DNA of 64,000 bases from Patescibacteria group bacterium (GCA_049322575.1 JBMORQ010000015.1:13373-77372), one strand, 5' to 3'; counted from the stretch's first letter, positions 1-55,530 are shown. Made by a program: numbers and translations. The notes: generated by a model from the letters alone, not told the origin.

Positions 1-12
1 AAAATTACCGAA

Positions 13-1545
13 ATGGAAGCTGAGATTCAGTCAGACATTAGATCTGGAAAAATTAGCAACATCAACACTGAGATCAAACTTAGTGATGCTCGTGCCATTC
101 GCGAACAATTAGCAGCTGGGGCTGAGAGGTTTTTTCAATTTGGCTTATACGTCACCATTCACGCCGAAAGTAAGGACGAGCTAGATCGCGTAACAAAAAA
201 TATACAATCAACCCTCGGTTCTTTACTTATTGTTTCCAAAAAAGCCACTCTTCAGATGGATGAAGGTTTTAAAACCACCCTCCCCATGGGTTCAGATAAG
301 CTTTTAATTACTAGAAACATGGACACCACTTCTTTGGCTACAACCTTTCCTTTCACTTCTTCTGAGCTGACAATGGAAAGCGGAATCATGTATGGCATCA
401 ACGAACATAATGAATCCTTGGTTGTTTTTGATCGTTTTAAGATGGAAAACGCTAATGTGGTAATCTTTGCCAAATCTGGTGCGGGTAAGTCTTACACTGT
501 CAAACTCGAGATCTTGCGTCAATTAATGTTTGACACCGAAGTAATTGTTCTTGATCCAGAACATGAATATGAAGACCTCGCACAAGCAGTTGGTGGCGAA
601 TATATAAATTTTACTTTCGGCTCAGAAACCAAAATTAATCCCTTTGACCTTGCTAATCTTTATGAAGAGGGTGAAAACGAGCTCGGTCAGAAAATCTTGT
701 CTCTGCATGGGCTACTAAAAGTCATGCTTGGAGACATGACACCCCAGCAAGAGGCCCTTCTTGACCGCGCTTTGGTTGCCGCTTACAAAGCCAAGGGTAT
801 TACACCAGACCCCACCACCCAAGCCAATGAGCCACCTCTCATGGAAGACTTGTACAAAGCTTTAATTGGTATGGAAAACAACGACGCTGCAGACATCGCA
901 GCTCGCTTAGAAAAATACATAACTGGTTCATTTCGAGGAATTTTTGACAAGCCATCAAACATTGATCTCACTAATCAGTTTACTGTTTTCTCGGTTAAAG
1001 AAATGGAAGAAGAACTCAGGCCAGTAGCCATGTACATTGTGCTTGACTATATTTGGACGCGTGTACGCAAGAATCTTAAGAAACGATTACTAATCATTGA
1101 CGAGGCTTGGTATTTCATGAAACATCCGGATAGTGCCTCCTTTATTCATTCAATGGCTAAAAGAGCTCGTAAATATTACCTAGGTATTACTACTATTACT
1201 CAGGATGTTGAGGATTTTCTTCATAATGATTATGGCAAGGCGATTGTTTCCAACGCTTCCATTCAGTTTCTAATGAAGCAATCAACGGCCTCAATTCCTG
1301 TCCTGGCACAAACTTTCTACTTATCAGAGGGTGAAAGACAATTGCTGGTTTCAGCAGATGTTGGTGAGGGTATTTTCTTTGCTGGCCAAAATCATGTAGC
1401 TTTAAGGGTTGTTGCTTCACAAGAAGAACATAATATTATTACTACCGATCCAGAAGAATTACTAAAGAAGCGTCAAGTAAAAACTTCAAGTCAGACTATT
1501 ACCTCGGTTAAAAACAGTCTTTCTGATTACCAAATGCCTGAGTAG
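13..1545 (+). CDS. virB4: VirB4/TrbE-family type IV secretion ATPase, C-terminal 510 aa; the 5' end is cut by the window edge
   Basis: The ORF runs off the left edge of the window. It has a Walker A motif (FAKSGAGKSYT) and a Walker B motif (LLIIDEAWYF), and its overall layout matches the NTPase domain of VirB4/TraE/TrbE. Confidence 0.7.
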   Translation: MEAEIQSDIRSGKISNINTEIKLSDARAIREQLAAGAERFFQFGLYVTIHAESKDELDRVTKNIQSTLGSLLIVSKKATLQMDEGFKTTLPMGSDKLLITRNMDTTSLATTFPFTSSELTMESGIMYGINEHNESLVVFDRFKMENANVVIFAKSGAGKSYTVKLEILRQLMFDTEVIVLDPEHEYEDLAQAVGGEYINFTFGSETKINPFDLANLYEEGENELGQKILSLHGLLKVMLGDMTPQQEALLDRALVAAYKAKGITPDPTTQANEPPLMEDLYKALIGMENNDAADIAARLEKYITGSFRGIFDKPSNIDLTNQFTVFSVKEMEEELRPVAMYIVLDYIWTRVRKNLKKRLLIIDEAWYFMKHPDSASFIHSMAKRARKYYLGITTITQDVEDFLHNDYGKAIVSNASIQFLMKQSTASIPVLAQTFYLSEGERQLLVSADVGEGIFFAGQNHVALRVVASQEEHNIITTDPEELLKKRQVKTSSQTITSVKNSLSDYQMPE

Positions 1546-16277: not shown

Positions 16278-16721
16278 CTATTGCCAGTTGGTATCAGAGG
16301 TGGGGACTACAAAATGCAGAATACTTTTTACGCCGGTAAAATCAGCCACCACGTTGAGAATAATAAAAGACGAAAGAGCTAAAACTAAGCCAGCAAAGGC
16401 AAAAAGCATGGTTTTACCAGCTTTTTGTGTAGCTTGAGAATCACCACCAGATAGTTGCCACTGAAGGGCTCCCCAGACAAGCATAATGAAGCCAGCAATT
16501 CCTAAAAGAGTTAAAGAGACAGAAAGAACGTTGGCAATCAAACACTGGAGGCCCTGAATCGTTGGAACAGACGAGTCAGTAGGAGAGACGCAAACACCCG
16601 TCCAGGTGTTGCTTGCTGCCCAAGCAACTTTTGGTTGAAAAAGCATGGTCGCTGTAGTGCTAAAAAAAGCAATTAGACGATTTTTTGAGACGTTTTTCAT
16701 GACAGGTTGATTATATACCAA
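16278..16721 (-). CDS. Pilin-like two-helix membrane protein, paralog 1 of a 7-gene array (putative T4SS pilin/VirB2-like)
   Basis: A signal peptide (cleaved after AWA), two hydrophobic helices, and a variant of the array's loop motif (WQLSGGDSQATQKAGK). Confidence 0.5.
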   Translation of the reverse strand: MVYNQPVMKNVSKNRLIAFFSTTATMLFQPKVAWAASNTWTGVCVSPTDSSVPTIQGLQCLIANVLSVSLTLLGIAGFIMLVWGALQWQLSGGDSQATQKAGKTMLFAFAGLVLALSSFIILNVVADFTGVKSILHFVVPTSDTNWQ

Positions 16722-16763
16722 AACCCCGCCTTGCGGCGGGGTTCATCAAACAAACTGAATATC

Positions 16764-17084
16764 TTAGTTACCGTGAATATTTGTGGTGCTATCAAAAACT
16801 TGATTAATACCGCCATCAAAGCCCAAGAAATTAAGAGCTAAGGTGAGAATGGCGTATGAAGAAGCCAAAACAACTAAGCCGATAACAGAAGCAGTAAGCT
16901 TGTTTCTAGCTGACTCAGTTTTACCCTTATCACCGCCACTGGCGATCCATTCAATACTTCCGTAAATTAGGAAGCCGAAGGCTAAAACAGCGGCAATGAC
17001 CATAACAAAGGTCAACAAAGCACTAAAAAGAGTGCCGAAGTTTGTGGCCCAGCCTGTTCCGAGACTAATTTCTATATCTCTCAT
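16764..17084 (-). CDS. Pilin-like two-helix membrane protein, paralog 2
   Basis: Two transmembrane helices flanking the loop motif EWIASGGDKGKTESARNK. Confidence 0.55.
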   Translation of the reverse strand: MRDIEISLGTGWATNFGTLFSALLTFVMVIAAVLAFGFLIYGSIEWIASGGDKGKTESARNKLTASVIGLVVLASSYAILTLALNFLGFDGGINQVFDSTTNIHGN

Positions 17085-17274
17085 TTCTCTCCTTTTTTCT
17101 TATACTCTAACTAATAATTATACCAAGAGTTGTTTCTTTAAGTCAAATAGCTCTCCTGCGAACTAAAAATTTGCAATAAAGGTGTGATTACGCAGGAAAT
17201 CTAACACCTGTCATATGAGTCTTATTTATGTGTTGTTAGTTGTTATTTTTTTTAATAATTATCTTATTATTGAC

Positions 17275-17637
17275 TTAGACACTCGGCTGACAAGTGCCTC
17301 CAAAATCTATAACACAGACATCTAAAAAGTCTTGCAAAAGTATAAACACGGCGCTTATGCTTGCTAGGGCTATTAGGCCAATAACCGACTGAGTGATGCG
17401 GGTACGCGCCTTATCAACTTTCCCCTTATCACCACCGGCACTTATCCACTCAATTGCTCCCCAGACCATAAATCCAAAAGACAAGAGTGCGGCAATGGTA
17501 AAAACTAAACTTAAGACACCACTAAACATCACTGCGAAGCCTTTTTTGGGATCAGCTGCCGTCTGGTAGCCGGGTAGTTTTTGGCTAACTGCCTCTTTGG
17601 TAAAATCCAGAGTTTGAGCGATGAGCTGAGTTTTCAT
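17275..17637 (-). CDS. Pilin-like two-helix membrane protein, paralog 3
   Basis: Two transmembrane helices flanking the loop motif EWISAGGDKGKVDKARTR. Confidence 0.55.
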   Translation of the reverse strand: MKTQLIAQTLDFTKEAVSQKLPGYQTAADPKKGFAVMFSGVLSLVFTIAALLSFGFMVWGAIEWISAGGDKGKVDKARTRITQSVIGLIALASISAVFILLQDFLDVCVIDFGGTCQPSV

Positions 17638-17686
17638 ATGGTTTTTGTTAATACTTGTTTTACTTTTAAAGTGTCAATTATTTGTA

Positions 17687-18112
17687 CTAAATAGCATTGC
17701 CAACTCCAGGGAAAGTCAGCTTTAGAATATCAAAGTTATCATCAAAAAGTAGTTTGCCTAGGAAGCCAATAAGGGTAAATGAGCCCACCAGCAAGAACAG
17801 ACCGATTGCTGAATTGAAGATCTTTTGTCGGGCTTTATCGACCTTGCCTGAGTCGCCACCCGAGGTAATCCACTCAACAGTGCCAAAAACAAACATACCA
17901 ATGACAATCAATGCACCAAAAGTGATCGCTGTATTCCAGAGGTAAACAAAGTACTTGGTAAAAATCACGCCAGACTCGGCTTTTTTGACGTTGTCGCCCA
18001 AATCCTTGTCAATGACTGGGTTTTTGATTTGTGCTAGAGCAACCTTGGCAGTTAGTGCCCAGAATGAAAAAGCAGAAAAAAGTGCGGTTTTGATTTTTAA
18101 ATTGTTTTTCAT
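17687..18112 (-). CDS. Pilin-like two-helix membrane protein, paralog 4
   Basis: A signal peptide (cleaved after ALAQ) and two transmembrane helices flanking the loop motif EWITSGGDSGKVDKARQK. Confidence 0.55.
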   Translation of the reverse strand: MKNNLKIKTALFSAFSFWALTAKVALAQIKNPVIDKDLGDNVKKAESGVIFTKYFVYLWNTAITFGALIVIGMFVFGTVEWITSGGDSGKVDKARQKIFNSAIGLFLLVGSFTLIGFLGKLLFDDNFDILKLTFPGVGNAI

Positions 18113-18117
18113 ATCGT

Positions 18118-18507
18118 TTATCCAGTAACCAACTCCTTGATCATTTTTGCTGGCCTGAGAAGCTCAACACCAATGATGGTGCCAATTAAACCGATTACGC
18201 CATATGCGGCGACGATGATGATTAAACCGATCGCGCCCTGGATCATCTTGTCTCTGGCTTTTTGGGCTTTGCCCGAATCACCACCTGCGTTGATCCACTC
18301 AATGCAGGCAACAACAAAATAGACTACGTAGAAGATTCCACCTAGAATGGTGAGCACCCCGATAATATTGGAAATAATTGTCTCTCCGTTTTTCAAGGCT
18401 GTTTCGTTGTTAATCGAGCCTTGGTTGTATTTTGCACTGGGTGGAGTAATATCACCCAGTTTTACAGCAAGTTGATTTGAGAGTTTTGACATATTAAATT
18501 TCCTCAA
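18118..18507 (-). CDS. Pilin-like two-helix membrane protein, paralog 5
   Basis: Two transmembrane helices flanking the loop motif EWINAGGDSGKAQKARDK; it overlaps the upstream paralog by 14 nt. Confidence 0.55.
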   Translation of the reverse strand: MRKFNMSKLSNQLAVKLGDITPPSAKYNQGSINNETALKNGETIISNIIGVLTILGGIFYVVYFVVACIEWINAGGDSGKAQKARDKMIQGAIGLIIIVAAYGVIGLIGTIIGVELLRPAKMIKELVTG

Positions 18508-18937
18508 AGGTTGGACTCAGAATATACGAGGCGCTGCCAAATACGATGTAGCTAATTATGCCAGTAATTGTGTATGCGGTCACGATTAGCACCAGGCCGA
18601 CAACGCTCATGGTCAATTTATTTGAGATTTTGCTGGAGGTGTTGGAATCACCAGCGCCGGAAATATACATCCAACCAGCGGCGATAAAGTTAAATAGCAC
18701 CCAGATTCCCGCTGCAATGGTTGCAATACGGATCAGGGTTGAGATAAATGGAATAATACCGATTCCACCAGCTCTGGAGTTGTATACTTCTACTCCTGGT
18801 GGTGCTTCAATATCTCCAAAAACGCTTTGAGCTTGAGCCAGCCCAGAAAGACTGACAAACAAAACCGCGGCGATTGCGAAGGAGTTTTTTATTTTGTTGA
18901 GAAAATGTTGATTTCTTTTTTGCATTTGATTTTTCAT
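18494..18937 (-). CDS. Pilin-like two-helix membrane protein, paralog 6
   Basis: A signal peptide (cleaved after AQAQS) and two transmembrane helices with a degenerate loop motif (MYISGAGDSNTSSKISNK). Confidence 0.5.
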   Translation of the reverse strand: MKNQMQKRNQHFLNKIKNSFAIAAVLFVSLSGLAQAQSVFGDIEAPPGVEVYNSRAGGIGIIPFISTLIRIATIAAGIWVLFNFIAAGWMYISGAGDSNTSSKISNKLTMSVVGLVLIVTAYTITGIISYIVFGSASYILSPTFEEI

Positions 18938-18959
18938 TTATGCCTGACAAAGCATAGCA

Positions 18960-19307
18960 CTAACCAATTACTTTTACTTTCGTGATTAGTTCAACCACCT
19001 GAACGATCCAATAAGCAGCAAACATGATGATTAGGCCGATGGTAGCTGTTGTCATAATGGTTTTTGCTTCATCTTTACCTTTTGATTCATCTTTAAGGAA
19101 CTTAAAGCCAGAAATAATTATCAGGACGAAAAGGATGAATCCAGCAATGACAAACATGTTGCTAACAGCTAGATTTACCAACTTAGAAAGGTCAGAATAT
19201 TGGGAGGCGACAGTGGTGCCATCGCTCAGTTCCAAACAGTCAGCAAGATTTATTCCAGCTGAACCAGGATTGCAGGCGGCATAGACTTTTGACACAATCT
19301 CTACCAT
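18960..19307 (-). CDS. Pilin-like two-helix membrane protein, paralog 7 (most divergent)
   Basis: The same size class and two-helix topology; the loop reads FKFLKDESKGKDEAK and lacks the GGD motif. It is the first gene of the array, lying nearest the divergent ECF sigma gene. Confidence 0.45.
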   Translation of the reverse strand: MVEIVSKVYAACNPGSAGINLADCLELSDGTTVASQYSDLSKLVNLAVSNMFVIAGFILFVLIIISGFKFLKDESKGKDEAKTIMTTATIGLIIMFAAYWIVQVVELITKVKVIG

Positions 19308-19341
19308 ATCAAGATGGTATTATACAAGAAACGTTTAAATC

Positions 19342-19881
19342 ATGCACAAACTAAAAGCTGATCAACAAAAACTGCTTGCTGGCTTGAGGAAAGCCGATCC
19401 TGCTTCGGTTAAAAAATGGTTTGATCTCTTTTATCCAGAGCTACTAAAAATTGCCGTGGTTAAGTTAAGCAGCCAGGATTTGGCTGAAGAACTGGTTCAA
19501 GAAACCTTTATTCACTCTCTTAAGCAGCTAACGCTGTTTCGTGGTGATTCGAGTTTGATGACCTGGATGCAAAGCATCTTGAGACATGAAATTTCTGACT
19601 ATTATAGAAAACAGTACGCTAAGAAGGCCATTAGAACGGTTTCTCTCTCGGAGTTGATTTTAAACGAGCCAATTAGAGACTCACACGAGGTTTCGGCCAA
19701 AGTTTCACAGGTTTTGTCGCGCATGGTGAATGGGCACAAGGAACTCTTGTTACTCAAATATGTAGATAAAAAGCGTGTCAAACAAATCGCGGCCGATCTT
19801 GGCAGAAGTGTCAAGTCGGTGGAATCAGAGCTCTTTCGGGCAAGGGAGGAATTTAGAGAGTTGTATATTGGCTTGGAGTAG
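19342..19881 (+). CDS. ECF-type sigma-70 family RNA polymerase sigma factor
   Basis: A region-2-like segment (ELVQETFIH) and a region-4 HTH (LKYVDKKRVKQIAADLGRSVKSVESELFRAREEFR). Confidence 0.8.
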   Translation: MHKLKADQQKLLAGLRKADPASVKKWFDLFYPELLKIAVVKLSSQDLAEELVQETFIHSLKQLTLFRGDSSLMTWMQSILRHEISDYYRKQYAKKAIRTVSLSELILNEPIRDSHEVSAKVSQVLSRMVNGHKELLLLKYVDKKRVKQIAADLGRSVKSVESELFRAREEFRELYIGLE

Positions 19882-19957
19882 ATTTAGGAACTAAGAATGC
19901 ATTTTTAGGGCGAGCCCTTTTTTAGGGGGGGTCCTTAAGCAAATTATTATTTATAAA

Positions 19958-20173
19958 ATGTTACGGCAATCAATGAGTTCACAGTCGCAAGATTTTATAG
20001 CTATGTTGCAAGAGGAAGCCGAGTTGCAGGCGAAGCTTCAGAGAACTCGTCTGTTGCCTGCTAGGCTAGACTTCTTAAGTCGTTTTGTGGCAACTCATGC
20101 TTGGCAGACAGTTTTAGTCAGCTCGTTTTTAACTGCTCTGATTTTGTGGTTGGGGCAGGTGGCGGGAAGGTGA
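19958..20173 (+). CDS. Putative anti-sigma factor (small single-pass membrane protein)
   Basis: 71 aa, immediately downstream of the ECF sigma gene, with a C-terminal transmembrane helix (VLVSSFLTALILWLGQVAG). The call rests on position and topology only. Confidence 0.35.
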   Translation: MLRQSMSSQSQDFIAMLQEEAELQAKLQRTRLLPARLDFLSRFVATHAWQTVLVSSFLTALILWLGQVAGR

Positions 20174-20190: not shown

Positions 20191-20817
20191 CTATTCTGGA
20201 AGCAAGGTGCCACCAGCTGACTCAATTTCTTCATCAGTTATTACCCATCTCATTTTTGTGTCGTGGTAGAGCTTTTTAAGATGGTTGAATTCGTTGTGCA
20301 ATTCACTTTGACCTCCATCGTAGCTAAATTTCATATTGTTTGTTTGCGCAAGGATCTCTGCACATCTTTTTGATGCTTCAATTATGGTCTGAAGCGCTTC
20401 GCTTCTTCGTCTTTCAAATTCACCATCTGAATAAGCATTGGCCTTATCAGTATATTCTGCTTCACTTAAACCCCAGGATTCTGTTATCTTTTCAAGATAG
20501 TGGGTGAGCCTAGAACGCTCTTGTTTGGCATGATCACTAACGTCGCCTGATAGTGGAAAACCATTATTTTCAACATTTAATATTCTAAGTCTCAATTCAA
20601 TATCGCTGGCAATTTGCAGGGCTTCTTCACGACTACCAATCTCTTCTAAAGGAATTGGTTTTTCTTCAAGTGGTTTCTCTGCAACTCCGCTGATGTGTTG
20701 TTGTTCGCCCATTTCTGCCATTTTCATCCTTAAAAAGTGATAACGATAAAATTTTAGTACACAGTGCAATATATATCCAGACCTAGGAGATTGATAATTT
20801 AAGACGGGGTATTCCAT
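20191..20817 (-). CDS. Hypothetical protein; the likely true start is the internal MAEMGEQQ near 20724
   Basis: The ORF is present, but the 5' extension overlaps a promoter-like AT-rich stretch. No family was recognised. Confidence 0.3.
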   Translation of the reverse strand: MEYPVLNYQSPRSGYILHCVLKFYRYHFLRMKMAEMGEQQHISGVAEKPLEEKPIPLEEIGSREEALQIASDIELRLRILNVENNGFPLSGDVSDHAKQERSRLTHYLEKITESWGLSEAEYTDKANAYSDGEFERRRSEALQTIIEASKRCAEILAQTNNMKFSYDGGQSELHNEFNHLKKLYHDTKMRWVITDEEIESAGGTLLPE

Positions 20818-21018: not shown

Positions 21019-21360
21019 ATGAAAAACCTAATTCTTTCTTTTATCTACTCATGTTTACAAATTGGTTTTGGTTTGTTGGTTCATCCATATCAGACCATGC
21101 AGTCTCTGGTTAGGGAGCGATTGTTTGTTTGGATGACTTTGTTGCCCATGTTTTGGTTAGCGATTTCAACAGTGTTGTGGAGAATCGTTGTTGTTCCACT
21201 AGTCAGAACATTTTTTGTATGTGGATCGATGGGGAATGACCCATGTGTTTTTTTGCCGCTCATATCAGACTGGATGACCTTTTTCTGTATTTACTGGCAG
21301 ACCCTATTGTTTTATTTGTTAATAAGATTTGGCAGTGTTTTTGGCAAAAATGAGAATTAA
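21019..21360 (+). CDS. Small hypothetical membrane protein
   Basis: 113 aa with three hydrophobic segments; it overlaps the annotated recF start. Confidence 0.3.
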   Translation: MKNLILSFIYSCLQIGFGLLVHPYQTMQSLVRERLFVWMTLLPMFWLAISTVLWRIVVVPLVRTFFVCGSMGNDPCVFLPLISDWMTFFCIYWQTLLFYLLIRFGSVFGKNEN

Positions 21361-35191: not shown

Positions 35192-37534
35192 ATGAGAAAC
35201 ATATCCACTCCAGAGCAGATGGCAGAAAAAGCAATGGGCGTTGTTTTTGGCCTATTTATGCTTGTGTTCTTGTTGGCTGCACTGATAGGAATTGCTTACT
35301 TATTATTTCTTTGGTTGAAGCGTCGCAATCGCGAAAACTACGCTCTGGATTTTGTTACCCTCATGATCCGGTTACCAAAAGACAACGAGATCAAGGTCGA
35401 TGCTGCTGAGCAGATGTTTGCCAGTCTTTTCTCTCTTAAAAAATCTGGCTGGATGGCCTTCGCCAAACCTGAAGAGGTGATTAGCTTTGAGATTGTGGCA
35501 CTCAAGGAATACATCGCATTTTATGTTTGCTGTCCCAAACGCATCCGTGATCTGGTAGAAAAACAAATTCAGGGCGCATATCCTCAAAGTGATATTAAAC
35601 AGGTGGATGAAGTTAATATTTTTAATGAAAATGGTAGGGTGGCCTTCGCCGATATTAAGTTGTCGAAGTCCAAGTATTTACCCATTAAAACCTACAAAGA
35701 TTTGCCAACCGATGGTTTGTCTTTGATAACTTCTGCTATGTCCAAGATGGGCGATGGTGAAGGTGCAATTTTGCAGTTTCTCTTCCAGCCCGAAGGCCAT
35801 AAATGGCAGGTTGCTGGGCGCTCCTACATGCAAAAAGAGAAAAAACGTGAGGCAGATCCAGACAAGGCGAGTTATAACCATGATCCTAAAGAAATGGAGG
35901 CGATAGGTAATAAGATTGAAAAGCCAGGATTTCGGGTAGCGATTCGAGCGGTGGTTTCGTCGCCCAACGAAATGATGGCTAAATCTCATTTGGAAAACAT
36001 TGTTGGAGCTTTTTCTCAGTTTACTTCTGCTTACAACAACTTTGGCAAACACATTCCTTTTTTTAAACACTTTTTCATGATCGATTTTATTTATCGTTAC
36101 ATGCCTTTTTTTGATCGCAATGTTTGCACTTTGAACACTGAGGAATTTGCCACGGTTTTTCATCTGCCAAATAAAACAGTTGCGACACACCACATCCAAT
36201 GGTTAACCGCAAAAAATGCCCCTGCACCAAACAATATTCCCAATCAAGGTTTGTATTTAGGCAAATCGATGTATCGTGGCGAAGCCCGTGAGGTTTTCAT
36301 GGACATCAACGACAGGCGTCGACACATGTACATTATTGGAAAAACCGGTACCGGTAAATCAGAGTATTTGAAAGAAATGATTTTACAGGATATTGAAAAC
36401 GGTTATGGAGTTTGTGCTATCGACCCCCATGGTGAGTTTGTTGAAGACATCTTACAACTCATGCCACCAGAGCGCGCCGAAGACGTAATTTATTTTAACC
36501 CCTCGGATTTGGAGAGGCCGATGGGCTTGAACATGATGGAGGCCGACACCGAGGAGCAGCGTCATTTTGTGGTGAGCTCGATCATCGGCTTGATGTATAA
36601 GCTTTACGATCCTCACCGCACTGGTATCATTGGTCCCCGTTTTGAGCACGCTATCCGCAACGCCATGTTAACTGTCATGAGCCGAGAAAACTCAACGTTT
36701 ATTGAGCTAGTGCGTTGTTTGACCGATCAAAAATTTGTTGAAGAAATGCTGCCTTATGTTAAAGACCCGGTGGTGAAACGCTATTGGACGGATCAGATCG
36801 CTCAGACCTCAGACTTTCACAAATCGGAAGTTTTGGATTACATCGTTTCCAAGTTTGGCCGCTTTGTAACTAACAAAACCATGCGTAATATTATTGGTCA
36901 AACTCAAAGTGCTTTTAATTTCCGCAAGGCCATGGACGAGAAGAAAATTATTTTGGTTAATTTATCCAAGGGTATTTTGGGCGAGGAAGACGCCAAGTTT
37001 TTAGGTTTGATTTTGGTGCCAAAAGTCCTGACTGCGGCCATGAGCCGTCAAGATGTGCCGATGGATCAACGCGAAGACTTTTTCCTTTATGTTGACGAGT
37101 TTCAGAACTACGCCACCGAGGATTTTGCTACGATCTTGTCCGAGGCGCGTAAATATCGTTTAAATCTAATCGTGGCTAACCAGTTTATTGGTCAGATTGA
37201 CGAAGAGATCAAGAATGCGGTTTTTGGCAACGTTGGCACGATTGTCTCTTTCCGCGTGGGTGTGACTGATGCCAACTTTTTGCAACACGAGTTTGCGCCA
37301 GTTTTTAACGAAAACGACCTGACCAACATCGAGAAATTTCACGTATACATCAAGACAATTGTTAAGAACGAACCAGTTGAAGCCTTTAGTATGTCGCTGC
37401 AAAAAGACATGGACGCGCAACAGGCTCGGATGAATCCCAAATTGGCGGAAATGATCAAAGAACTCTCGCGCTTGAAATACGGCAAGGACCGCTCGGTCAT
37501 TGAGGCCGACATGCAGGTGCGGGCGAAGTTGTAG
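35192..37534 (+). CDS. VirD4/TraG-family type IV coupling protein-like ATPase (T4CP)
   Basis: An N-terminal transmembrane helix, a Walker A motif (IIGKTGTGKSEY) followed by AIDPHGE (compare the xxDPKGD of TrwB/VirD4), a Walker B motif (FFLYVDEFQNY), and the T4CP-like LIVANQFIGQI motif (the Q-x-x-x-Q-L family). Confidence 0.6.
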   Translation: MRNISTPEQMAEKAMGVVFGLFMLVFLLAALIGIAYLLFLWLKRRNRENYALDFVTLMIRLPKDNEIKVDAAEQMFASLFSLKKSGWMAFAKPEEVISFEIVALKEYIAFYVCCPKRIRDLVEKQIQGAYPQSDIKQVDEVNIFNENGRVAFADIKLSKSKYLPIKTYKDLPTDGLSLITSAMSKMGDGEGAILQFLFQPEGHKWQVAGRSYMQKEKKREADPDKASYNHDPKEMEAIGNKIEKPGFRVAIRAVVSSPNEMMAKSHLENIVGAFSQFTSAYNNFGKHIPFFKHFFMIDFIYRYMPFFDRNVCTLNTEEFATVFHLPNKTVATHHIQWLTAKNAPAPNNIPNQGLYLGKSMYRGEAREVFMDINDRRRHMYIIGKTGTGKSEYLKEMILQDIENGYGVCAIDPHGEFVEDILQLMPPERAEDVIYFNPSDLERPMGLNMMEADTEEQRHFVVSSIIGLMYKLYDPHRTGIIGPRFEHAIRNAMLTVMSRENSTFIELVRCLTDQKFVEEMLPYVKDPVVKRYWTDQIAQTSDFHKSEVLDYIVSKFGRFVTNKTMRNIIGQTQSAFNFRKAMDEKKIILVNLSKGILGEEDAKFLGLILVPKVLTAAMSRQDVPMDQREDFFLYVDEFQNYATEDFATILSEARKYRLNLIVANQFIGQIDEEIKNAVFGNVGTIVSFRVGVTDANFLQHEFAPVFNENDLTNIEKFHVYIKTIVKNEPVEAFSMSLQKDMDAQQARMNPKLAEMIKELSRLKYGKDRSVIEADMQVRAKL

Positions 37535-37551
37535 AGAAAAACGATGTTTTC

Positions 37552-40500
37552 ATGCATGAAAAAATTGCTTATCAACCAAAGGATTCACAAAATTCTATTA
37601 GCTTGGCAAAAGAAGAGCTTGTTGTTTTGGAAGAGATTAGAAAGAAGATAGTTGCTGCTGACATCGATTTTAGACTCTCTACTGAGGATTATAAAAATCT
37701 CCTAGAATTGGGTCTTGATAAAAAATGCAACCTTTGGACGAGGAACGATTTACTGTCGGTAATAGTTCTTAGAATCAAGTTTATTTCTCAAGAAATCTTA
37801 GAAAAGACAGACGCAATAAATTTTTTTTCTGATGTAATAGGTAGTTCAGAGATGACCAATGATGGTGAGATTGTATTGCAAAAGGATGCTGATGGTATTG
37901 ACGGTGTTTGCAATAAGGTTCTTCAAAGTCTTGCAACTATTTTTCCAGACAATAAAAACGAGTTACAGGACAAATTGGCTTTTTCGGCAAATCATTTCTT
38001 ATCAATTGGCAATGCATTGGCCTATTTAGCGACGAGCAGTAATCCGACATTTTTTCAGCAAATTGAAACAGAGCTTTTAAATGAAAATCTGATTTGCAAA
38101 ATGAGAAGTGTTTGGTCGCAGGACATGAAAGATGCATTAAACGCCTGTCATCGCGAAAAGACAAAGGAGAGCTATCAGAGATTATTAAAGGCTTATCAGC
38201 GCGAAAAACCAAGGCTGATAGTGTTTTTATGTTTTGCAGTTTCTATGAGTATGTTTGAATCGACTGACCATGGTAATTTTGATAAGCATGCTGAAAGAAT
38301 TATAAAGGGTTTAGAGGACAGTAATTTTATTGGTTCGTTTGTTACTCATGCTGAAGTTATGCAAATTGTTGGAAGCATAGATGCTAATAAAAAACAAAAG
38401 GTTCAACCACAATTGGCGCAATATTTAAAATCGAAACTTGAGAGCGGAGAAATAAACTCTGGGTTTGCGCTCGAAATTTTTGCTTCTGCAAAGAATGGCT
38501 CATCTCTTTTAGAAAGTCCTAGTTTTATCAGATTTTTTGCTGAGATGGAATCATTTTTGATGGATGATTATCTAATTAAAGAAAATGATGCTAAACAAAG
38601 ACTGAGAATTAATCCAAATGTTAGGGCGATTGCCTCATTATTATTGTTGTCAATGTTTTTTGTTGGTGATTCAAAAACATATAGCAGACCTCAGTTACAG
38701 TTAGATTTTGGTAGGTTTTTCCCGATAACCATGAACGTTTTTGGTGGCTTGGAAGAAGGAATCGATACGGTAATCCAAAGGGTTAAGTTTGAAGATAAAA
38801 AAGAAGACGTTGTTGTTGAAGAAAAAAAAGAAACGGTTTCGGTAGAATCTTTAGGTATTGACCCAAAAGCTGTTAATAGCTCTGTGGAAGGACTGGATCA
38901 GGAGTCAGATAGGCAACATGAGGCCGCTCAAAAACTTGCCAATGAACTAGGTGAAAAAGATATCAACGAGTTTTTAATCGATTCTCCCGCTAGCCCAAGT
39001 AGTTTATCGAAATTTCAAACCGGGGCTGTCTCTGCCGAGGGTTATATTGCAACAGGTTATGAGGTTGGTTGTACTTTTAGGAAATCAAGTAGTAGCTCAA
39101 TCGGTTTTTTTAGTAAGGTTTTGTATGACAAAATAGATCCTGGTTCTGGAGAATTTGTTTCAAGCTGGAGTCCATCCAACGAAATTCCCCAGGAGCTTGA
39201 GCAGATTCCAATGATTGTTGCTTCTAGTGGAATGGAAATAATAATTTGCAAATTGTCCGAATTGCAGCCGAATAATTGGTACAGCATCGCAACTACCCCA
39301 TCTCGTTCAGTAGTGCGTGGTCAACTTGTTGCAGATAATCAAGGTGATCAAATTTTGATTCCGATTGAGGTTGTTAAAGATCCAGAAAGTACAACAAGTT
39401 TTTTTAGAATAAATGAAAAATATAAAGAAGATCTTAGCCGGTCGTCTGATTTCCAATTGGTTTATGAACTTGGAGACCCCTTTGATTATCCCCAAAAAGA
39501 AAAGGATGACGGGGTGCCGTTTCTGGACAGAGAATATATTGATCCGGCAATTATGCAAATAATTGACCAGCTCAATGCTGATAAGAATATGGACGAATAT
39601 GAGAAGCTAGTTGTGTTGCGTAAGGCCATGCAAAATTATGGAATATATAGTGTTGATCCAAAAAATGATCAAGATAAGTATTTAGCAGAATTTGTTGGAA
39701 AAGTTGATGCTGCCACTTATACAAAGCTGCGATATTCTTTGTATTTTGGTCAATATGAGCGATTTGGTTTAACGTCCGATACTGGTCCAGTCAAAGGTGC
39801 TGGCGAATGTAATAGATCAAATGGAGCAGCGTTTTTAGCCTTTGAGCATCTTATACTAAACGACTGGAAGATTCGCTTAAGAAGTGGTGACGTGATCTCT
39901 GAAAATGAAAAATATGGTTTTGCTGGATCTGGCCATATTTATATTGAAGCGGTCAACATTAAAAATGGCGAAATAATAGACCTTGATACAACATCTTCTA
40001 ATATAGATGCATACACCCAATCTTTGAGAGCAAAAGGACACGATCCATCAGTGGCCTTTGATGCAAATTTTGAACAATTAGCTAGTGGGACGTTAACAAT
40101 TACTGACTATGATTACAGTAATTATGTAACACCCGATACTTCACTTAACATAGAAGTAGCCTTGATCAGAAAGTCAGAGTGGGGCTGGCCTGTTACGCTT
40201 GATGATGAACTTCTTGCAAAAATTAATACTCCAGACAATTTCATTAATTATAATGATTGGTTTTCTCCTGATAAACTCAAGAAATGGATTGTAAATAGTA
40301 ACTATGGTTATGAGATTAATGTGGCAGATGAGGATGGTGGTGTTGATTACTGTATGCCGGTTTTTAGCAAAAATGATGGATTTACGACTCAAATTACTCC
40401 AGATTCAGTGCTAACTGATGGAATAATTAAAAATAAATTTTTAATTGAAAGAGTCGCTGACAAGGCTATGAAAATGAGGCGTGATTTTGTTGTTGAAATA

Positions 40501-42597: not shown

Positions 42598-44432
42598 CAG
42601 AAATACATCATCCGAGACTTGATTTTGATGGGGGCAATGATTCTAGAGCAAGAGCAGAACAGGATTGGGTTATTGCCGAGGCTACTAGAAGAACTGAACA
42701 GGGATCTGATTTCATTGTTACGCCTCATGCTCGTGAAAAACTTAATCGATTAAAGGAAGCATTCCGAAGAGGTAATAGAGTTGTAATAGTTGAAGGTCCA
42801 CCTGGTACGGGTAAGTCTCAACTTTTATACCAACTAGTGATAGAGCTCATGAAAGAGAATCCCGAAATTTTGGGTTATAGCAGGACTCAGGGAGCTCCGG
42901 GTTTAATTTCTGCTGATTTATTAGTTCAGCCAAGAGTTACACCCAAAACTAGCGCTGAAGATAATACTTTTCAGGCATTAGAAAACAATCAGGAATTGAT
43001 GGACAAAATAATTGGGGAGTATGTCCAGCTTTCTATTGGTGGTTTTTTAAATAACTTACCACCCGATGTTCGAAGACAAAAGATAGACTTATTTTTAAAA
43101 AAGATTGGGGTAAAAGGAGCTTTTTCTGAAACGGGTGAGCTTATTCTGGAAGAAGACCAATCGGAGTTTTTACAATTTTTAGAAGACAAAAGACTTCGTC
43201 AAAATTTGGGACCATTGGTTGATAAGAAAATTCTAGCACTGGCTATGGAACTGGGTTTATTGGTAATTATTGACGAGGCTAATATGGTCCGTACACCAAA
43301 TGGACTGGGATTGCAGGGACTAGAAAATGCTTTTACGGTCAAGCCCGGGGAAATATTTAATTTTGATGGCCTGTTTGTTATAGTTGATAAAGTTTTTGGT
43401 GTATTTATGACAACCAACAGTATTGACGAAATTTCGCCAGCAATTGCTAGGTTTGGTAGATCAGGTCATTTGACAATGAACGCTGACTCCGGAGATATGG
43501 CTGCTGCAGCAAGAGTTTTATTAACCGATGAAAAAGGTAAGTTTATTCTGTCAGAAAGAAAAAGAGATGAATCGGAATTGTGTAGGTTAATATGGTGGCT
43601 TGAGGACCTAAATTTAGAGGGAATAGATGTTAGCTTGAACTTAGTGACTCCGCTTTGTAAATTGATGGCAGAGGGTATGGATTTTAGGCAAGCATTTCAG
43701 CAGATAGTACAAAGCTTAAAAAGGGAAGAAAAGGATTATTTAATATCTAGAATTCGAGGCTCATTTCAAAGTACAGCTGGCGAGGATGAGGAAGCCTTTG
43801 GCCGTCAATCACTATCACAACTAAATTGTTTATACAACTCTGATGTTTTTGGTAATGAAAGGAAGGAAGCTCTTGTTGATTCTGGTTTTCGTGCTGAGTT
43901 TAATCAGACAACCGGAACGTGTTTTGTCACCGATGGAAACAACTCCGTTATTACAGAACACCAGTTTAAGATAGATGGATCAATCACTAAGCAGATCTCG
44001 TCTCCAGATGGAAAACTTCTTATAATGAATTCTGAAGGTGGATTGATTGTTATTGATACAGTTTTAATGCAGGCAATTCCAGTTTTGGATTCTAAACAAA
44101 TCGGTAAAGACTCAGAAAACATTGGTAATGAACGAGGCTTGAGAAATATCGAGGTTCATGAATTTTGTTGGGCAAACCATAATCAGCTGTTGGCCGTAAT
44201 TAAACGAGGCTCAAACTGGGAAGTGGCGCTTTTTTCAAAAGTGAAACAAAGAGCTGAGGCTGGTGAGTCGCCGATATCATTTCTCAAGATTGAAGAATCA
44301 AGAAAAATTGAACAACCTCAGAATGTGCTCGTAGAGGGCAAGCAGTTGATCGTTGATGATTATTTATACTCAGTTAATCAGGACGACCTTCTTAACCCAT
44401 TAGCGCGAAAAAAATTTAGCAATGCTAGTTGA
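42594..44432 (+). CDS. AAA+ ATPase (AAA_5/MoxR/McrB-like class)
   Basis: The start codon overlaps the giant gene's stop codon (ATGA). It carries a Walker A motif (VVIVEGPPGTGKSQL), a Walker B motif (LLVIIDEANMV) and a sensor-like ARFGRSGH segment. Confidence 0.7.
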   Translation: MTEIHHPRLDFDGGNDSRARAEQDWVIAEATRRTEQGSDFIVTPHAREKLNRLKEAFRRGNRVVIVEGPPGTGKSQLLYQLVIELMKENPEILGYSRTQGAPGLISADLLVQPRVTPKTSAEDNTFQALENNQELMDKIIGEYVQLSIGGFLNNLPPDVRRQKIDLFLKKIGVKGAFSETGELILEEDQSEFLQFLEDKRLRQNLGPLVDKKILALAMELGLLVIIDEANMVRTPNGLGLQGLENAFTVKPGEIFNFDGLFVIVDKVFGVFMTTNSIDEISPAIARFGRSGHLTMNADSGDMAAAARVLLTDEKGKFILSERKRDESELCRLIWWLEDLNLEGIDVSLNLVTPLCKLMAEGMDFRQAFQQIVQSLKREEKDYLISRIRGSFQSTAGEDEEAFGRQSLSQLNCLYNSDVFGNERKEALVDSGFRAEFNQTTGTCFVTDGNNSVITEHQFKIDGSITKQISSPDGKLLIMNSEGGLIVIDTVLMQAIPVLDSKQIGKDSENIGNERGLRNIEVHEFCWANHNQLLAVIKRGSNWEVALFSKVKQRAEAGESPISFLKIEESRKIEQPQNVLVEGKQLIVDDYLYSVNQDDLLNPLARKKFSNAS

Positions 44433-45042
44433 ACAAAGAGAAGAACCGATTTTTTCTACTATTGATAGTTTTAGGCAGTATTTTAAAGCCATTCAAGATA
44501 GAGGCCATGTAAGTAATGTTGATTATCGTTCCAGGCCTAATGTCAGTGAATTGTGCCGTGCAGCAGTAAAGTCAATGATCACTGGAATTGAAATTAGACC
44601 TGAAGCACAAGGATTACAGTCGAGAGAGATTGTCAAAAATAATGAGGTGATCATAATTTGCCAACGATATTTACTACCTGCTCTGGAGGAAATAAAACGC
44701 GCTGGCAATAAACATGGAATTGATGTAAGTTTTATAACAATCGAGCAAGTTTATAGTCCTATGGGAGTGAGTGTTTGGCGAGTTCATTTTCCAGGTGACG
44801 AATCCAATTTTGATTTACCTTTTGCCGAGTACAGTCATCATAAACTGGGTGATGTTATGGCACTTGCAAAAAATTTTCCACAATTGAACAAAACCATTGG
44901 GGATAAAAATGTTTTTGTTGTTGGTCCCAGACCAACTTACGATTCAGGTGTAGAACTTAAAGCGGTTGCATTAAAGAAAATGAAAAACAGAAATGGTAGC
45001 TATTGGCACGAGATCGGTCAAAATGGCTTTTCTGAGTTCTAG
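44422..45042 (+). CDS. Hypothetical protein (206 aa), the last gene of the T4CP-giant-AAA+ operon
   Basis: An 11-nt overlap with the AAA+ gene; no family was recognised. Confidence 0.4.
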   Translation: MLVEQREEPIFSTIDSFRQYFKAIQDRGHVSNVDYRSRPNVSELCRAAVKSMITGIEIRPEAQGLQSREIVKNNEVIIICQRYLLPALEEIKRAGNKHGIDVSFITIEQVYSPMGVSVWRVHFPGDESNFDLPFAEYSHHKLGDVMALAKNFPQLNKTIGDKNVFVVGPRPTYDSGVELKAVALKKMKNRNGSYWHEIGQNGFSEF

Positions 45043-52646: not shown

Positions 52647-52715
52647 GATTATTACTTTTTTGCAGATGTGCCTTTTGCGACATATAACAGAGATTTTTTT
52701 GGTTAACGACTAGAG

Positions 52716-53825: not shown

Positions 53826-53962
53826 CCATTTCCAGGCAATTACTTTGTCATGATAACTTGACAGCTGGTCTGAGATCTATCGCGGGTAAACTAGATTACT
53901 GAATTACTTGGGGGAGGAGAACTCTGCTAGAACAGATCGTATTGGGGAGGAGACCCAAATTG

Positions 53963-55515: not shown

Positions 55516-55530
55516 TTTATTTTATCTAGA

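What the first reader, a model, noticed from the sequence alone, without database searches (positions are those of the whole stretch)
16278..20173. Array of seven tandem, highly diverged pilin-like paralogs beside a divergent ECF sigma / anti-sigma pair
Seven consecutive minus-strand genes of 106-147 aa share one architecture: an optional signal peptide and two hydrophobic helices flanking a short loop with the motif W-I-x-(S/A)-GGD-x-GK-x(3)-AR. The copy at 18960-19307 has lost the GGD motif. Two of the genes overlap by 14 nt. This is the topology of VirB2/TrbC-type T4SS pilins, but amplified sevenfold and diverged, which suggests diversification of a surface-exposed filament subunit, either antigenic or host-range variation. 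The array sits about 15 kb from the truncated virB4 gene and about 16 kb from the coupling-protein operon. An ECF sigma factor and a putative membrane anti-sigma factor are transcribed divergently from the array's first gene, so envelope-stress-type regulation of the pilins is plausible.
Basis: partly seen in the sequence, partly recalled or inferred. Interest (0 to 1): 0.75.

Follow-up and report, generated by a model that had tools for sequence, protein, structure and literature searches.

The report
Conserved seven-gene T4SS pilin array
Seven neighbouring genes in this ultra-small (Patescibacteria) bacterium encode type IV secretion "pilin-like" membrane hairpins, a kind of array already published for this phylum, and here they are an ancient fixed-order set of distinct subunits rather than a recently amplified variable cassette.

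Summary
Seven minus-strand genes (16278-19307) all hit Pfam PF18895 T4SS_pilin. An ECF sigma gene and a conserved ~65-aa tail-anchored membrane protein lie divergently next to them.

The kind is already published. VirB2-like pilin arrays of 2-11 genes, about 25% identical, occur in 383 Patescibacteria assemblies, especially Microgenomatia (PMC12102498). A six-gene array is essential in Southlakia epibionticum.

New here:
- In 78 related species-level genomes the array has 5-10 genes, most often 7.
- The gene order is always the same as in the window.
- Each window paralog has its own orthologs, 43-53% identical, with dN/dS of 0.01-0.33. This argues against antigenic or host-range variation and for non-redundant subunits.
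- One gene (16764-17084) is a likely major subunit. It has its own consensus sigma-70 promoter, a Shine-Dalgarno site and a terminator, all conserved in relatives.

The link between sigma module and array survives at least two different flanking contexts. However, every pilin promoter I could recognise is sigma-70-type, so ECF control of the pilins remains unproven.

- The "lost" GGD motif is ancestral to that orthogroup.
- The 14-nt overlap depends on the start codon chosen.
- "Truncated virB4" is only cut by the window edge.

The parts
18960..19307 (-). W1, first pilin-like gene (115 aa). It lacks the GGD turn motif, has two Cys in the N-terminal region, and its mRNA is near-leaderless.
   Evidence: PF18895 at 27.3 bits. 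Its best hit sits at rank 1 next to sigma in 75 of 76 loci. The orthogroup consensus lacks GGD throughout.
18494..18937 (-). W2 (147 aa), with a Sec-type signal peptide (...SGLAQA/Q) and a degenerate GAGD turn. This slot is often duplicated in relatives.
   Evidence: PF18895 at 19.1 bits, below cut-off. It scores 153 bits against my own family HMM. Its best hit is at rank 2 in 64 of 72 loci. Duplicates are shown.
18118..18492 (-). W3 (124 aa from ATG 18492, or 129 aa if TTG 18507 is used), carrying the full WI..GGD.GK...AR motif.
   Evidence: PF18895 at 37.5 bits. The external gene call gives 124 aa. GAGGAA precedes the ATG.
17687..18112 (-). W4 (141 aa), with a signal peptide (...KVALA/Q) and the full motif.
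   Evidence: PF18895 at 26.7 bits. Orthogroup conservation is 45%.
17275..17637 (-). W5 (120 aa), with the full motif and no signal peptide. A possible own promoter (TTGACA-18-TATTAA) lies at 17648-17677.
   Evidence: PF18895 at 26.1 bits. The promoter matches 10 of 12 positions in the window, but this is rarely conserved (4 of 54 orthologs).
17117..17146 (-). Consensus sigma-70 promoter of W6 (TTGACT-18-TATAAT with TG), followed by AAGGAG before ATG 17084.
   Evidence: It matches 11 of 12 positions and is the best site in the region. The same architecture occurs in 53 of 91 W6-class genes at 10 of 12 or better, against at most 18 of 92 for the other classes.
16764..17084 (-). W6 (106 aa), the candidate major subunit. 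It is the most conserved orthogroup and forms a monocistronic unit. The window copy lacks the signal peptide that its orthologs carry.
   Evidence: PF18895 at 38.1 bits. Orthologs are about 134 aa with a signal peptide and 57-69% identical. No signal-peptide remnant is found in the spacer. The AF2 model is a hairpin, H16-48 and H53-86, pLDDT 83.7. dN/dS is lowest, 0.01-0.12.
16720..16743 (-). Intrinsic terminator after W6 (AACCCCGCC-GCAA-GGCGGGGTT followed by a T run), then TATAAT at 16710-16715, the promoter of W7.
   Evidence: Read directly from the sequence and found by my hairpin scan. A terminator follows 53 of 91 W6-class genes in relatives.
16278..16700 (-). W7 (140 aa from ATG 16700), with a signal peptide (...KVAWA/A), two conserved Cys in the N-terminal ectodomain, and GGD without the GK/AR part.
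   Evidence: PF18895 at 25.2 bits. Its best hit is the distal gene of the array in 62 of 71 loci. The conserved AQt..W...C...C signature is shown.
19315..19324 (.). Shared back-to-back -10 element, TGGTATTATA. On the + strand it reads as an extended -10 for the sigma gene. On the - strand it reads TATAAT, 11 nt before the W1 ATG.
   Evidence: The window sequence is. TGnTATTAT(A) occurs in 39 loci including the window, mostly next to the W1 start, and no conserved -35 accompanies it.
19342..19881 (+). ECF-type (group IV) sigma factor, divergent from W1.
   Evidence: Sigma70_r2 and r4_2 domains, and TIGR02937 at 68.1 bits. There are 169 homologs at 44-61% identity in Pacebacteria and Woesebacteria MAGs. 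It is adjacent to a pilin array in 78 of 81 loci.
19958..20173 (+). 71-aa tail-anchored membrane protein, a candidate minimal anti-sigma factor. It has an N-terminal amphipathic helix and a C-terminal TM helix, with no extracytoplasmic domain.
   Evidence: No Pfam or NCBIfam hit. A homolog lies immediately after the sigma gene in nearly all of the 80 related loci; the consensus is FL..Lq.eA..Q..L...lP...WQ.ll.ls.
21019..21360 (+). 113-aa polytopic membrane protein. In relatives it directly follows the small TM protein. In the window it is separated from it by a lineage-specific 208-aa ORF (20191-20817, minus strand).
   Evidence: A homolog is present in 72 loci, starting just after the small protein. 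The 208-aa ORF has no homolog in any locus. No Pfam hit.
1..1545 (+). C-terminal about 510 aa of a VirB4-type T4SS ATPase, cut by the window edge and lying immediately upstream of dnaA.
   Evidence: TraG P-loop (E 4.8e-26), AAA_10 and CagE_TrbE_VirB hits. The reading frame is open to base 1.
35192..37534 (+). VirD4/TrwB-like coupling-protein candidate (780 aa).
   Evidence: TrwB_AAD_bind (E 1.1e-7), DUF87 and TraG-D_C hits.

Best explanation
The seven genes encode a fixed, ancient set of non-interchangeable T4SS pilin-like subunits of the chromosomal, host-interaction T4SS of a Microgenomatia-type Patescibacterium. They belong to PF18895, part of the VirB2/TrbC superfamily.

Each protein is a two-helix membrane hairpin. 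The tight turn is the GGD motif, and helix 2 starts with a Lys/Arg cluster.

Inferred topology: N- and C-termini outside and the basic turn inside. The proteins are inserted by Sec or YidC, and signal peptides are removed from W2, W4 and W7.

Inferred assembly: the VirB4 ATPase encoded next to dnaA extracts the subunits from the membrane and assembles them into a pilus or envelope-spanning conduit. W6 is the bulk (major) subunit. W1-W5 and W7 are low-abundance accessory subunits for the base, tip or adaptor, analogous to major and minor pilins in other filament systems.

The neighbouring module of ECF sigma, tail-anchored small protein and 113-aa membrane protein is a conserved partner. Whether it transcribes the pilins is not shown, and the recognisable pilin promoters look sigma-70-dependent.
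For: Shown:
- Family membership of all seven genes.
- W6 is a hairpin with the turn at SGGD.
- hhalign gives 97% probability to a Bacillota 'pilin-like conjugal transfer protein' that lies upstream of VirB6-like and VirB4-like genes.
- VirB4 and a coupling-protein candidate are in the window.
- All 499 array ORFs from 78 loci, when assigned to their best window paralog, give gene orders that are always monotonic 1 to 7. Of 61 complete arrays, 33 have exactly 7 genes.
- Within-orthogroup identity is 43-53% against about 25% between paralogs, and each group has its own signature residues.
- dN/dS between close species is 0.01-0.33, similar to flanking genes at 0.01-0.22.
- The W6 class alone has a consensus promoter, a Shine-Dalgarno site and a terminator.
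- Single polypeptides with 2-17 fused pilin hairpins exist, which suggests that several hairpins work together.

Literature:
- The pilin series is essential in S. epibionticum (PMC10633639).
- Arrays of 2-11 genes are widespread in Patescibacteria (PMC12102498).
Against: - No filament has been seen for any of these proteins.
- Fold searches return only generic helical hairpins, and there is no sequence match in the PDB.
- Three of the seven genes fall just below the Pfam cut-off.
- W1, W3 and W5 have hydrophilic N-terminal regions of about 40 aa without a signal peptide. W3's is net positive, so the N-out topology is not secure.
- The window's W6 lacks the signal peptide of its orthologs.
- The array is 15 kb from virB4, with housekeeping genes in between.
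- The major/minor assignment rests on promoter and terminator sequence only, not on expression data.
Confidence: 0.6

Rival explanations
1. Variation cassette. The paralogs are alternative, interchangeable major pilins whose diversification serves antigenic or host-range variation.
For: - Paralogs are only 19-27% identical.
- The N-terminal, presumably exposed, regions differ most.
- The W2 and W6 slots are duplicated in some genomes.
- In the closest species pair, W1, W2 and W5 show somewhat relaxed dN/dS of 0.23-0.33.
- Precedent exists in the VirB2 arrays of Bartonella and Anaplasma, cited.
Against: - Gene order and orthogroup identity are invariant across 78 species-level genomes.
- Each paralog is conserved at 43-53%, about as well as the cytoplasmic sigma factor at a median of 51%.
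- All dN/dS values are well below 1.
- Only one slot has strong independent expression signals.
- There are no recombination or inversion repeats or silent-cassette features. The genes are contiguous, and several are tightly packed.
Confidence: 0.1
2. Membrane-embedded heteromer. The hairpins never form an extracellular filament. They assemble into a ring or bundle of defined stoichiometry in the cytoplasmic membrane, forming part of the monoderm T4SS channel or a platform for it.
For: - Monoderm MPF_FATA-type T4SSs are not known to make pili, yet a Bacillota T4SS cluster carries two PF18895 genes beside VirB6.
- Polyproteins of 6-17 fused hairpins exist.
- The fixed seven-member composition fits a defined complex.
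Against: - Weak but consistent similarity to the TrbC/VirB2 and CagC pilin families.
- One subunit shows bulk-expression signals, as expected for a polymer.
- Fused hairpins are not incompatible with a filament, because both termini lie on the same side.
Confidence: 0.2
3. The ECF sigma factor directly drives transcription of the pilin array in response to an envelope or host-contact signal relayed by the small TM anti-sigma factor.
For: - The divergent arrangement is conserved in 78 of 81 loci, with a gap of 150 nt or less in 69.
- It is kept when flanking genes differ: uppS is distal in 26 loci and on the sigma side in 23, and L082 has a recA/pgk flank.
- The small TM protein is conserved after the sigma gene in nearly all of 80 related loci.
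Against: - The promoters of W1, W5, W6, W7 and of the sigma gene itself are TATAAT or extended -10 type, and W6 has a near-consensus TTGAC-17/18-TATAAT.
- No conserved ECF-like -35/-10 pair was found.
- L071 keeps sigma, the small protein and the 111-aa protein without adjacent pilins.
- Much of the wider region is syntenic in the clade anyway.
Confidence: 0.2
4. The genes encode unrelated small membrane proteins (holin-like or DUF) with no T4SS role, or the array is an assembly artefact.
For: - Two-helix hairpins are a very simple fold, and fold search is non-specific.
- Weak hits to many unrelated TM families appear at E above 0.001.
Against: - All seven genes, W6's homologs and all related-locus array ORFs hit PF18895 or the family HMM.
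- The Bacillota homolog lies inside a T4SS cluster.
- The copies are far from identical, and the same array appears in an independent assembly and in 78 other genomes.
Confidence: 0.03

Closest known systems
VirB2-like pilin arrays of Patescibacteria (Quinonero-Coronel et al. 2025, PMC12102498; the six-gene essential array of Southlakia epibionticum ML1, Wang et al. 2023, PMC10633639; the TM7x array)
   Same: The family is the same (PF18895 was one of the profiles used). Both show tandem arrays of 2-11 genes, about 25% identity within an array, abundance in Microgenomatia, a chromosomal relaxase-poor T4SS, and virB4 beside dnaA.
   Different: Here the array is detached from virB4 by 15 kb and paired with an ECF sigma module. 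The papers do not report orthology or colinearity between arrays, a distinct major-subunit transcription unit, the sigma linkage, or fused poly-pilins. They speculate on host adaptation, whereas my data point to fixed non-redundant subunits.
VirB2/TrbC/TraA conjugative pilins of diderm T4SS (Pfam PF04956; CagC PF16943)
   Same: They are small helical hairpins with two hydrophobic helices and a basic connecting turn. There is weak sequence similarity: among W6, its homologs and the window paralogs, 24 of 32 hit TrbC (best E 6.7e-5) and 9 hit CagC. A VirB4 ATPase is encoded in the same genome.
   Different: All hits are below the PF04956 cut-off. There is no evidence of long leader processing or cyclisation. 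The host is a monoderm. There are seven distinct paralogs instead of one major pilin plus VirB5.
Pilin-like proteins of monoderm conjugation systems (NCBIfam NF045849, Mbov_0395 family; Pontibacillus plasmid NZ_CP062975 genes at 351801-352713)
   Same: The Pontibacillus proteins are in PF18895 (47.4 and 23.8 bits). hhalign gives 97% probability to the W6 family. There are two tandem copies, and they sit next to VirB6-like and VirB4-like (CD1110 family) genes and a peptidoglycan hydrolase.
   Different: The window proteins score only 17-26 bits against NF045849, whose cut-off is 40. The plasmid has two copies within a compact conjugation cluster. The window has seven copies detached from the ATPase.
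VirB2 paralog arrays of Bartonella, Anaplasma and Rickettsia
   Same: They show tandem multiplication of T4SS pilin genes in host-dependent bacteria (cited; see also the PMC2653234 and PMC3556328 titles).
   Different: Those arrays are interpreted as antigenic or host-range variants. Here the copies are colinear orthogroups under purifying selection.
Major and minor pilin sets of type IV pili and type II secretion pseudopili (functional analogy only)
   Same: One abundantly expressed subunit is combined with several conserved, low-expression, non-interchangeable paralogs encoded together.
   Different: The fold and machinery are unrelated: type IV pilins have a single N-terminal TM helix and depend on the PilD peptidase. 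The analogy is an inference, not a tested relationship.
Short single-pass (class II, CnrY-like) anti-sigma factors (from my own knowledge of the family)
   Same: It is a small protein encoded directly after an ECF sigma gene, with a short cytoplasmic N-terminal helix followed by one TM helix.
   Different: There is no sequence match to any anti-sigma family. It has no extracytoplasmic segment at all. Binding to the sigma factor is untested.

Membership tests
Pfam PF18895 T4SS_pilin | Profile score at or above the gathering cut-off (26.6 bits) | tested here: met
   W6 38.1, W3 37.5, W1 27.3 and W4 26.7 pass. W5 26.1, W7 25.2 and W2 19.1 fall just below. All seven are tied together by my own family HMM at 120-164 bits, and their orthologs behave the same way. 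All 32 sequences of A3 (W6, its homologs and the other six window paralogs) hit PF18895.
Pfam PF18895 T4SS_pilin | Two hydrophobic helices forming a hairpin with a short polar turn | tested here: met
   The AF2 model of W6 has H16-48, a turn at SGGD and H53-86, with pLDDT 83.7. Hydropathy shows two hydrophobic segments in each paralog.
Pfam PF18895 T4SS_pilin | Genomic association with T4SS core genes (VirB4, VirB6, coupling protein) | tested here: inconclusive
   VirB4 lies 15 kb upstream and a VirD4-like gene 16 kb downstream, with housekeeping genes in between. There is clear association for a Bacillota family member and, per the literature, in 1135 of 1948 Patescibacteria assemblies. Whole-genome co-occurrence in this clade was not testable.
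Pfam PF18895 T4SS_pilin | Assembly into an extracellular pilus | not testable with these tools
   No structural or imaging data exist. Fold searches give only generic hairpins.
TrbC/VirB2 pilins (PF04956) | Profile score at or above the family cut-off | tested here: not met
   None of the seven window proteins reached E of 1 or better for PF04956. 24 of the 32 A3 sequences give sub-threshold hits, best E 6.7e-5. This indicates a superfamily-level relationship only.
TrbC/VirB2 pilins (PF04956) | Leader peptide removal and, for TrbC/VirB2, head-to-tail cyclisation | not testable with these tools
   Sec-type signal peptides are visible in W2, W4, W7 and in W6 orthologs. No processing data exist, and no cyclase was searched for.
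NCBIfam NF045849 (Mbov_0395 pilin-like conjugal transfer protein) | Score at or above the cut-off (40 bits) | tested here: not met
   It is the top or only NCBIfam hit for all seven genes, but at 16.8-25.8 bits.
Patescibacteria VirB2-like pilin array (as defined in PMC12102498) | At least 2 pilin genes in tandem or separated by one gene, detected with PF18895 or PF04956, in a genome with VirB4 | tested here: met
   Seven contiguous genes. VirB4 is in the same window. The organism is named 'Patescibacteria group bacterium' and its relatives are Pacebacteria and Woesebacteria.
ECF (group IV) sigma factors | Sigma-2 and sigma-4 domains only, matching the ECF superfamily model | tested here: met
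   Sigma70_r2 (E 6e-11), Sigma70_r4_2 (E 6e-9) and TIGR02937 at 68.1 bits against a cut-off of 42.9; the protein is 179 aa.
ECF (group IV) sigma factors | Cognate anti-sigma factor with a recognisable anti-sigma domain encoded alongside | tested here: inconclusive
   A conserved co-directional ~65-aa TM protein follows the sigma gene in nearly all of 80 related loci. It has no anti-sigma family match and no zinc-binding HxxxCxxC motif.
ECF (group IV) sigma factors | Autoregulated ECF-type promoter (GAAC-like -35, CGT-like -10) upstream of its own operon or of neighbouring targets | tested here: not met
   Only an extended -10 (TGnTATTAT) without a conserved -35 is found upstream of the sigma gene. 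Sigma-70-type sites lie upstream of the pilin units.

The most novel reading that the evidence does not exclude
The array is a seven-component heteromeric T4SS filament or conduit, with one major and six accessory hairpins in a fixed ancient order. Its membrane pool or assembly state is sensed within the bilayer by the tail-anchored small protein, which releases the adjacent ECF sigma factor. This would give these minimal epibionts a dedicated circuit linking host contact to transcription. The back-to-back shared -10 element would make pilin and sigma transcription mutually dependent.
Probability: 0.12. Interest if true: 0.7.

Novelty: new member of a known kind. Interest (0 to 1): 0.38.

Why it matters
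The T4SS of Patescibacteria is essential for epibiotic growth in the one species tested, and its function is described as completely unknown (PMC11665869). Its pilin arrays are the feature that sets it apart from other monoderm T4SSs.

Showing that a Microgenomatia-type array is a fixed, colinear set of seven separately conserved subunits, with one strongly expressed member, changes the working model. The model moves from a variable surface antigen or host-range repertoire to a multi-component machine. It also tells experimenters which gene to tag as the bulk subunit.

The conserved partnership with a sigma, small TM protein and membrane protein module offers a testable candidate regulator, in a phylum where almost nothing is known about regulation.

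The array itself is not a discovery, because arrays of this kind are already in the literature.

Tried and rejected
2. A profile search of PDB sequences found nothing meaningful.
3. The afdb50 library was unavailable.
4. Aligning 39 loci on the shared -10 showed no conserved -35.
5. dN/dS among the paralogs themselves was rejected as meaningless at about 25% identity. I computed it between orthologs of close species instead.
6. I looked for a degraded signal-peptide coding remnant upstream of W6. There is none.
7. No further pilin genes were found elsewhere in the 64-kb window, even at E of 10 or less.
8. An Rfam scan of the window found only one tRNA.
9. A literature search for any reported link between a sigma factor and a pilin array found none in the held library.
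10. I first read conserved sigma-array adjacency as evidence of co-regulation. I then tempered that, because much of the region (NUDIX, uppS, recF and others) is syntenic in the clade. It was partly restored by the finding that the module persists in different flank contexts.

Full report
**What is there.** Between 16278 and 19307 the minus strand carries seven contiguous ORFs of 106-147 aa. An independent gene call on a Logan assembly of the same sequence gives the same seven genes. I number them W1 (18960-19307, next to the sigma gene) to W7 (16278-16721). All seven hit Pfam PF18895 'Type IV secretion system pilin'. Four are above and three just below the 26.6-bit cut-off. For all seven the best or only NCBIfam hit is the Mycoplasma-ICE 'pilin-like conjugal transfer protein' model, below its cut-off. 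Global identity to the first-listed paralog is 19-27%. The full W-I-x-(S/A)-GGD-x-GK-x3-AR motif is present in W3-W6, partial in W2 and W7, and absent in W1.

**Structure and family.** An AlphaFold model of W6 (pLDDT 83.7) is a two-helix hairpin whose turn is exactly the SGGD motif, and helix 2 opens with K/K/R/K. Alignment A3 holds W6, 25 of its homologs and the other six window paralogs. All 32 sequences hit PF18895, 24 also hit TrbC/VirB2 weakly, and 9 hit CagC. Fold searches were uninformative: they returned generic hairpins only.

**Genomic setting.** The window is a Patescibacteria chromosome near oriC. It begins inside a VirB4-type ATPase gene whose frame is open to base 1, so the gene is not truncated. 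Then follow dnaA, dnaN, rnpA, yidC, valS and uppS, and then the array. A VirD4/TrwB-like protein lies at 35192-37534. The sigma protein is 100% identical to a protein of an NCBI MAG named 'Patescibacteria group bacterium'. Its homologs are named Pacebacteria or Woesebacteria, which is the Microgenomatia-type lineage.

**Already known.** Quinonero-Coronel et al. 2025 (PMC12102498) searched 3,035 Patescibacteria genomes with PF18895 and PF04956. They reported 441 'VirB2 arrays' of 2-11 genes in 383 assemblies, especially in Microgenomatia and Saccharimonadia. Mean within-array identity was 25%, and virB4 often lay beside dnaA. They speculated about adaptation to different hosts by analogy with Bartonella and Anaplasma. 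Wang et al. 2023 (PMC10633639) found the pilin series of Southlakia epibionticum essential. A 2025 review highlights this as the one monoderm T4SS that may build a pilus (PMC12857230). Neither paper mentions sigma factors, orthology between arrays or fused pilins, and literature searches found no such link.

**Comparison with relatives.** Using an alignment of sigma homologs I fetched 80 species-level loci from GTDB genomes. I searched their six-frame ORFs with an HMM built from the seven window proteins. In 78 of 81 loci (the 80 fetched plus the window) a run of pilin ORFs lies on the opposite strand immediately upstream of the sigma gene, and the gap is 150 nt or less in 69. Among 61 arrays not cut by a contig end, sizes are 5-10, and 33 have exactly 7.

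Each window paralog finds its best match at the colinear position in the other genomes. W1 is at rank 1 in 75 of 76 loci, W2 at rank 2 in 64 of 72, and W7 at the distal end in 62 of 71. I assigned all 499 array ORFs to their best window paralog. Every locus then reads 1-2-3-4-5-6-7 in that order, with only missing members or local duplicates of slots 2 and 6. No locus has a different order.

Mean identity within an orthogroup is 43-53%, against about 25% between paralogs. Each group has its own signature. W1 lacks GGD everywhere, so that is ancestral and not a recent loss. W7 has two conserved cysteines.

Between closely related species, orthologous pilins have dN/dS of 0.01-0.33. The flanking genes (sigma, uppS, recF, ligase and others) have 0.01-0.22. 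W6 is usually the most constrained. These results do not fit a recently amplified, diversifying antigen or host-range repertoire. They fit seven old, non-redundant subunits.

**Expression signals.** W6 is set apart from the rest. In the window it has TTGACT-18-TATAAT with an upstream TG (11 of 12 matches, the best site in the region), an AAGGAG Shine-Dalgarno site, and a GC-rich hairpin with a T run directly after its stop codon. The same architecture recurs in relatives. Of 91 W6-class genes, 53 have a promoter matching 10 of 12 or better, 61 have a Shine-Dalgarno site and 53 have a downstream terminator. The other six classes reach at most 18 of 92, 7 and 4 respectively.

W1 and W7 (and, in the window, W5) have a TATAAT-like box 9-11 nt before the ATG, so their mRNAs are near-leaderless. 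W1 to W4 are tightly packed. I therefore infer a strongly expressed monocistronic major subunit (W6) and low-level accessory subunits. This is sequence inference only.

**The sigma module.** 19342-19881 is a typical ECF-type sigma factor. The 71-aa ORF after it has no family match. A homolog follows the sigma gene in nearly all of the 80 related loci, as a protein of about 65 aa with an N-terminal amphipathic helix and a C-terminal TM helix that ends the protein. It could be a minimal anti-sigma factor, but that is untested. In 72 loci a 113-aa membrane protein follows directly. In the window a lineage-specific 208-aa ORF has been inserted between them.

The sigma gene and W1 share a back-to-back -10 element at 19315-19324 (TGGTATTATA). 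It reads as an extended -10 towards the sigma gene and as TATAAT towards W1. A TGnTAwwAT element occurs in 39 loci including the window, mostly right beside the W1 start, and it has no conserved -35. I found no ECF-like promoter anywhere in the module.

Much of the surrounding region is syntenic in this clade, which weakens adjacency as an argument for co-regulation. However, the array-sigma block persists where the flanks differ. uppS is distal to the array in 26 loci but on the sigma side in 23. In 27 loci a large secreted protein follows the array instead. A locus with a more distant sigma (44% identical) keeps pilins, sigma, the small protein and the membrane protein between recA/pgk and uppS. 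One genome keeps the sigma module without adjacent pilins, and one has the sigma gene alone. The partnership is real, but its mechanism is open.

**T4SS association of the family.** A tblastn search of plasmids with W6 gave a single hit, a Pontibacillus (Bacillota) gene annotated 'Mbov_0395 family pilin-like conjugal transfer protein'. It and its neighbour both match PF18895. They lie upstream of a TrbL/VirB6-like protein, a CD1110-family VirB4-like ATPase and a peptidoglycan hydrolase. hhalign to the W6 family gives 97% probability. This is context evidence, independent of Patescibacteria, that the family belongs to T4SS machinery. It also suggests that monoderm conjugation systems are not entirely devoid of VirB2-like proteins.

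**Family size and fusions.** A profile of the seven proteins finds 70,361 cluster representatives at E of 1e-3 or better among 1.84 billion. Many top hits are single polypeptides with 2-17 tandem hairpin domains. Two-domain fusions also occur inside related arrays. That several hairpins can be covalently joined fits co-assembly. It does not decide between a filament and a membrane ring.

**Verdict.** Assignment to the pilin family and the T4SS link are supported. The diversification reading is not supported. ECF control is plausible only from conserved linkage and is not supported by promoter sequence. The object is a new member of a published kind. The incremental insights are the fixed heptad, the candidate major subunit and the sigma-module partnership, and they are testable.

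Noticed in passing
window 16764-17274: The window's W6 (106 aa) starts at what is the mature N-terminus in its orthologs. Those are about 134 aa with a clear Sec signal peptide. The 190-nt spacer holds the promoter and no remnant of signal-peptide coding. The candidate major subunit of this genome would therefore have to insert without a leader.
   Followed up: partly
P0241, P0262, P0253; L018 7409-8203, L047 7411-8238, L066 6106-6921: 'Poly-pilins' are single ORFs with 2 to 17 tandem PF18895-like hairpin domains. One example is 1775 aa with 17 units, most of them separated by Cys-containing linkers. They are not mentioned in the Patescibacteria T4SS paper.
   Followed up: partly
L011 7644-10573, L013 11772-14377, L025 10746-12409, L078 13670-15296 (minus strand): In many related genomes a pair of larger proteins lies 4-10 kb beyond the sigma gene. 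They are 150-540 aa and about 360-430 aa, each with a large N-terminal ectodomain and a C-terminal PF18895 hairpin. They are candidate adhesin-bearing pilins. No counterpart was found in the 64-kb window.
   Followed up: partly
L010 2642-6163 (minus strand) and 26 other loci: In 27 related loci a 600-1170 aa secreted protein without any Pfam match lies directly after the last pilin gene, on the same strand. In the window, uppS occupies that position instead.
   Followed up: partly
window 20191-20817 (minus strand): A 208-aa ORF with no family hit and no homolog in any of the 80 related loci is inserted between the small TM protein and the 113-aa membrane protein, which are adjacent in relatives.
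   Followed up: partly
L083 (Pontibacillus plasmid NZ_CP062975) 11776-18090: A Bacillota conjugation-type cluster carries two tandem PF18895 pilin-like genes upstream of VirB6-like and VirB4-like genes. This is at odds with the general statement that Gram-positive T4SSs lack VirB2-like proteins. It is relevant to where the Patescibacteria pilins came from.
   Followed up: partly
window 35192-45042: The VirD4/TrwB-like gene is followed, on the same strand, by a 1681-aa protein with no Pfam match, a 612-aa protein with weak AAA_30/STAND NTPase hits, and a 206-aa protein with no Pfam match. This may be a second T4SS-related operon.
   Followed up: no
window 53962-54036 (minus strand): The only tRNA in the window is tRNA-Ile with anticodon UAU. 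This is an uncommon way for bacteria to read AUA.
   Followed up: no
window 52000-64000: There is a sharp compositional step. GC is 0.47-0.49 at 52-58 kb, then 0.30-0.34 at 58-64 kb, against about 0.40 elsewhere. This may reflect foreign DNA or a strongly biased gene set.
   Followed up: no
L071 4000-12800; L030 1-6000: Two related genomes break the pattern. L071 keeps sigma, the small TM protein and the 111-aa protein, but has ArsR-like and heavy-metal ATPase genes where the pilins should be. L030 has a sigma homolog alone, in a different context beside a putative nrdR-like gene (my reading from the sequence), and no homolog of the small TM protein was detected there.
   Followed up: partly
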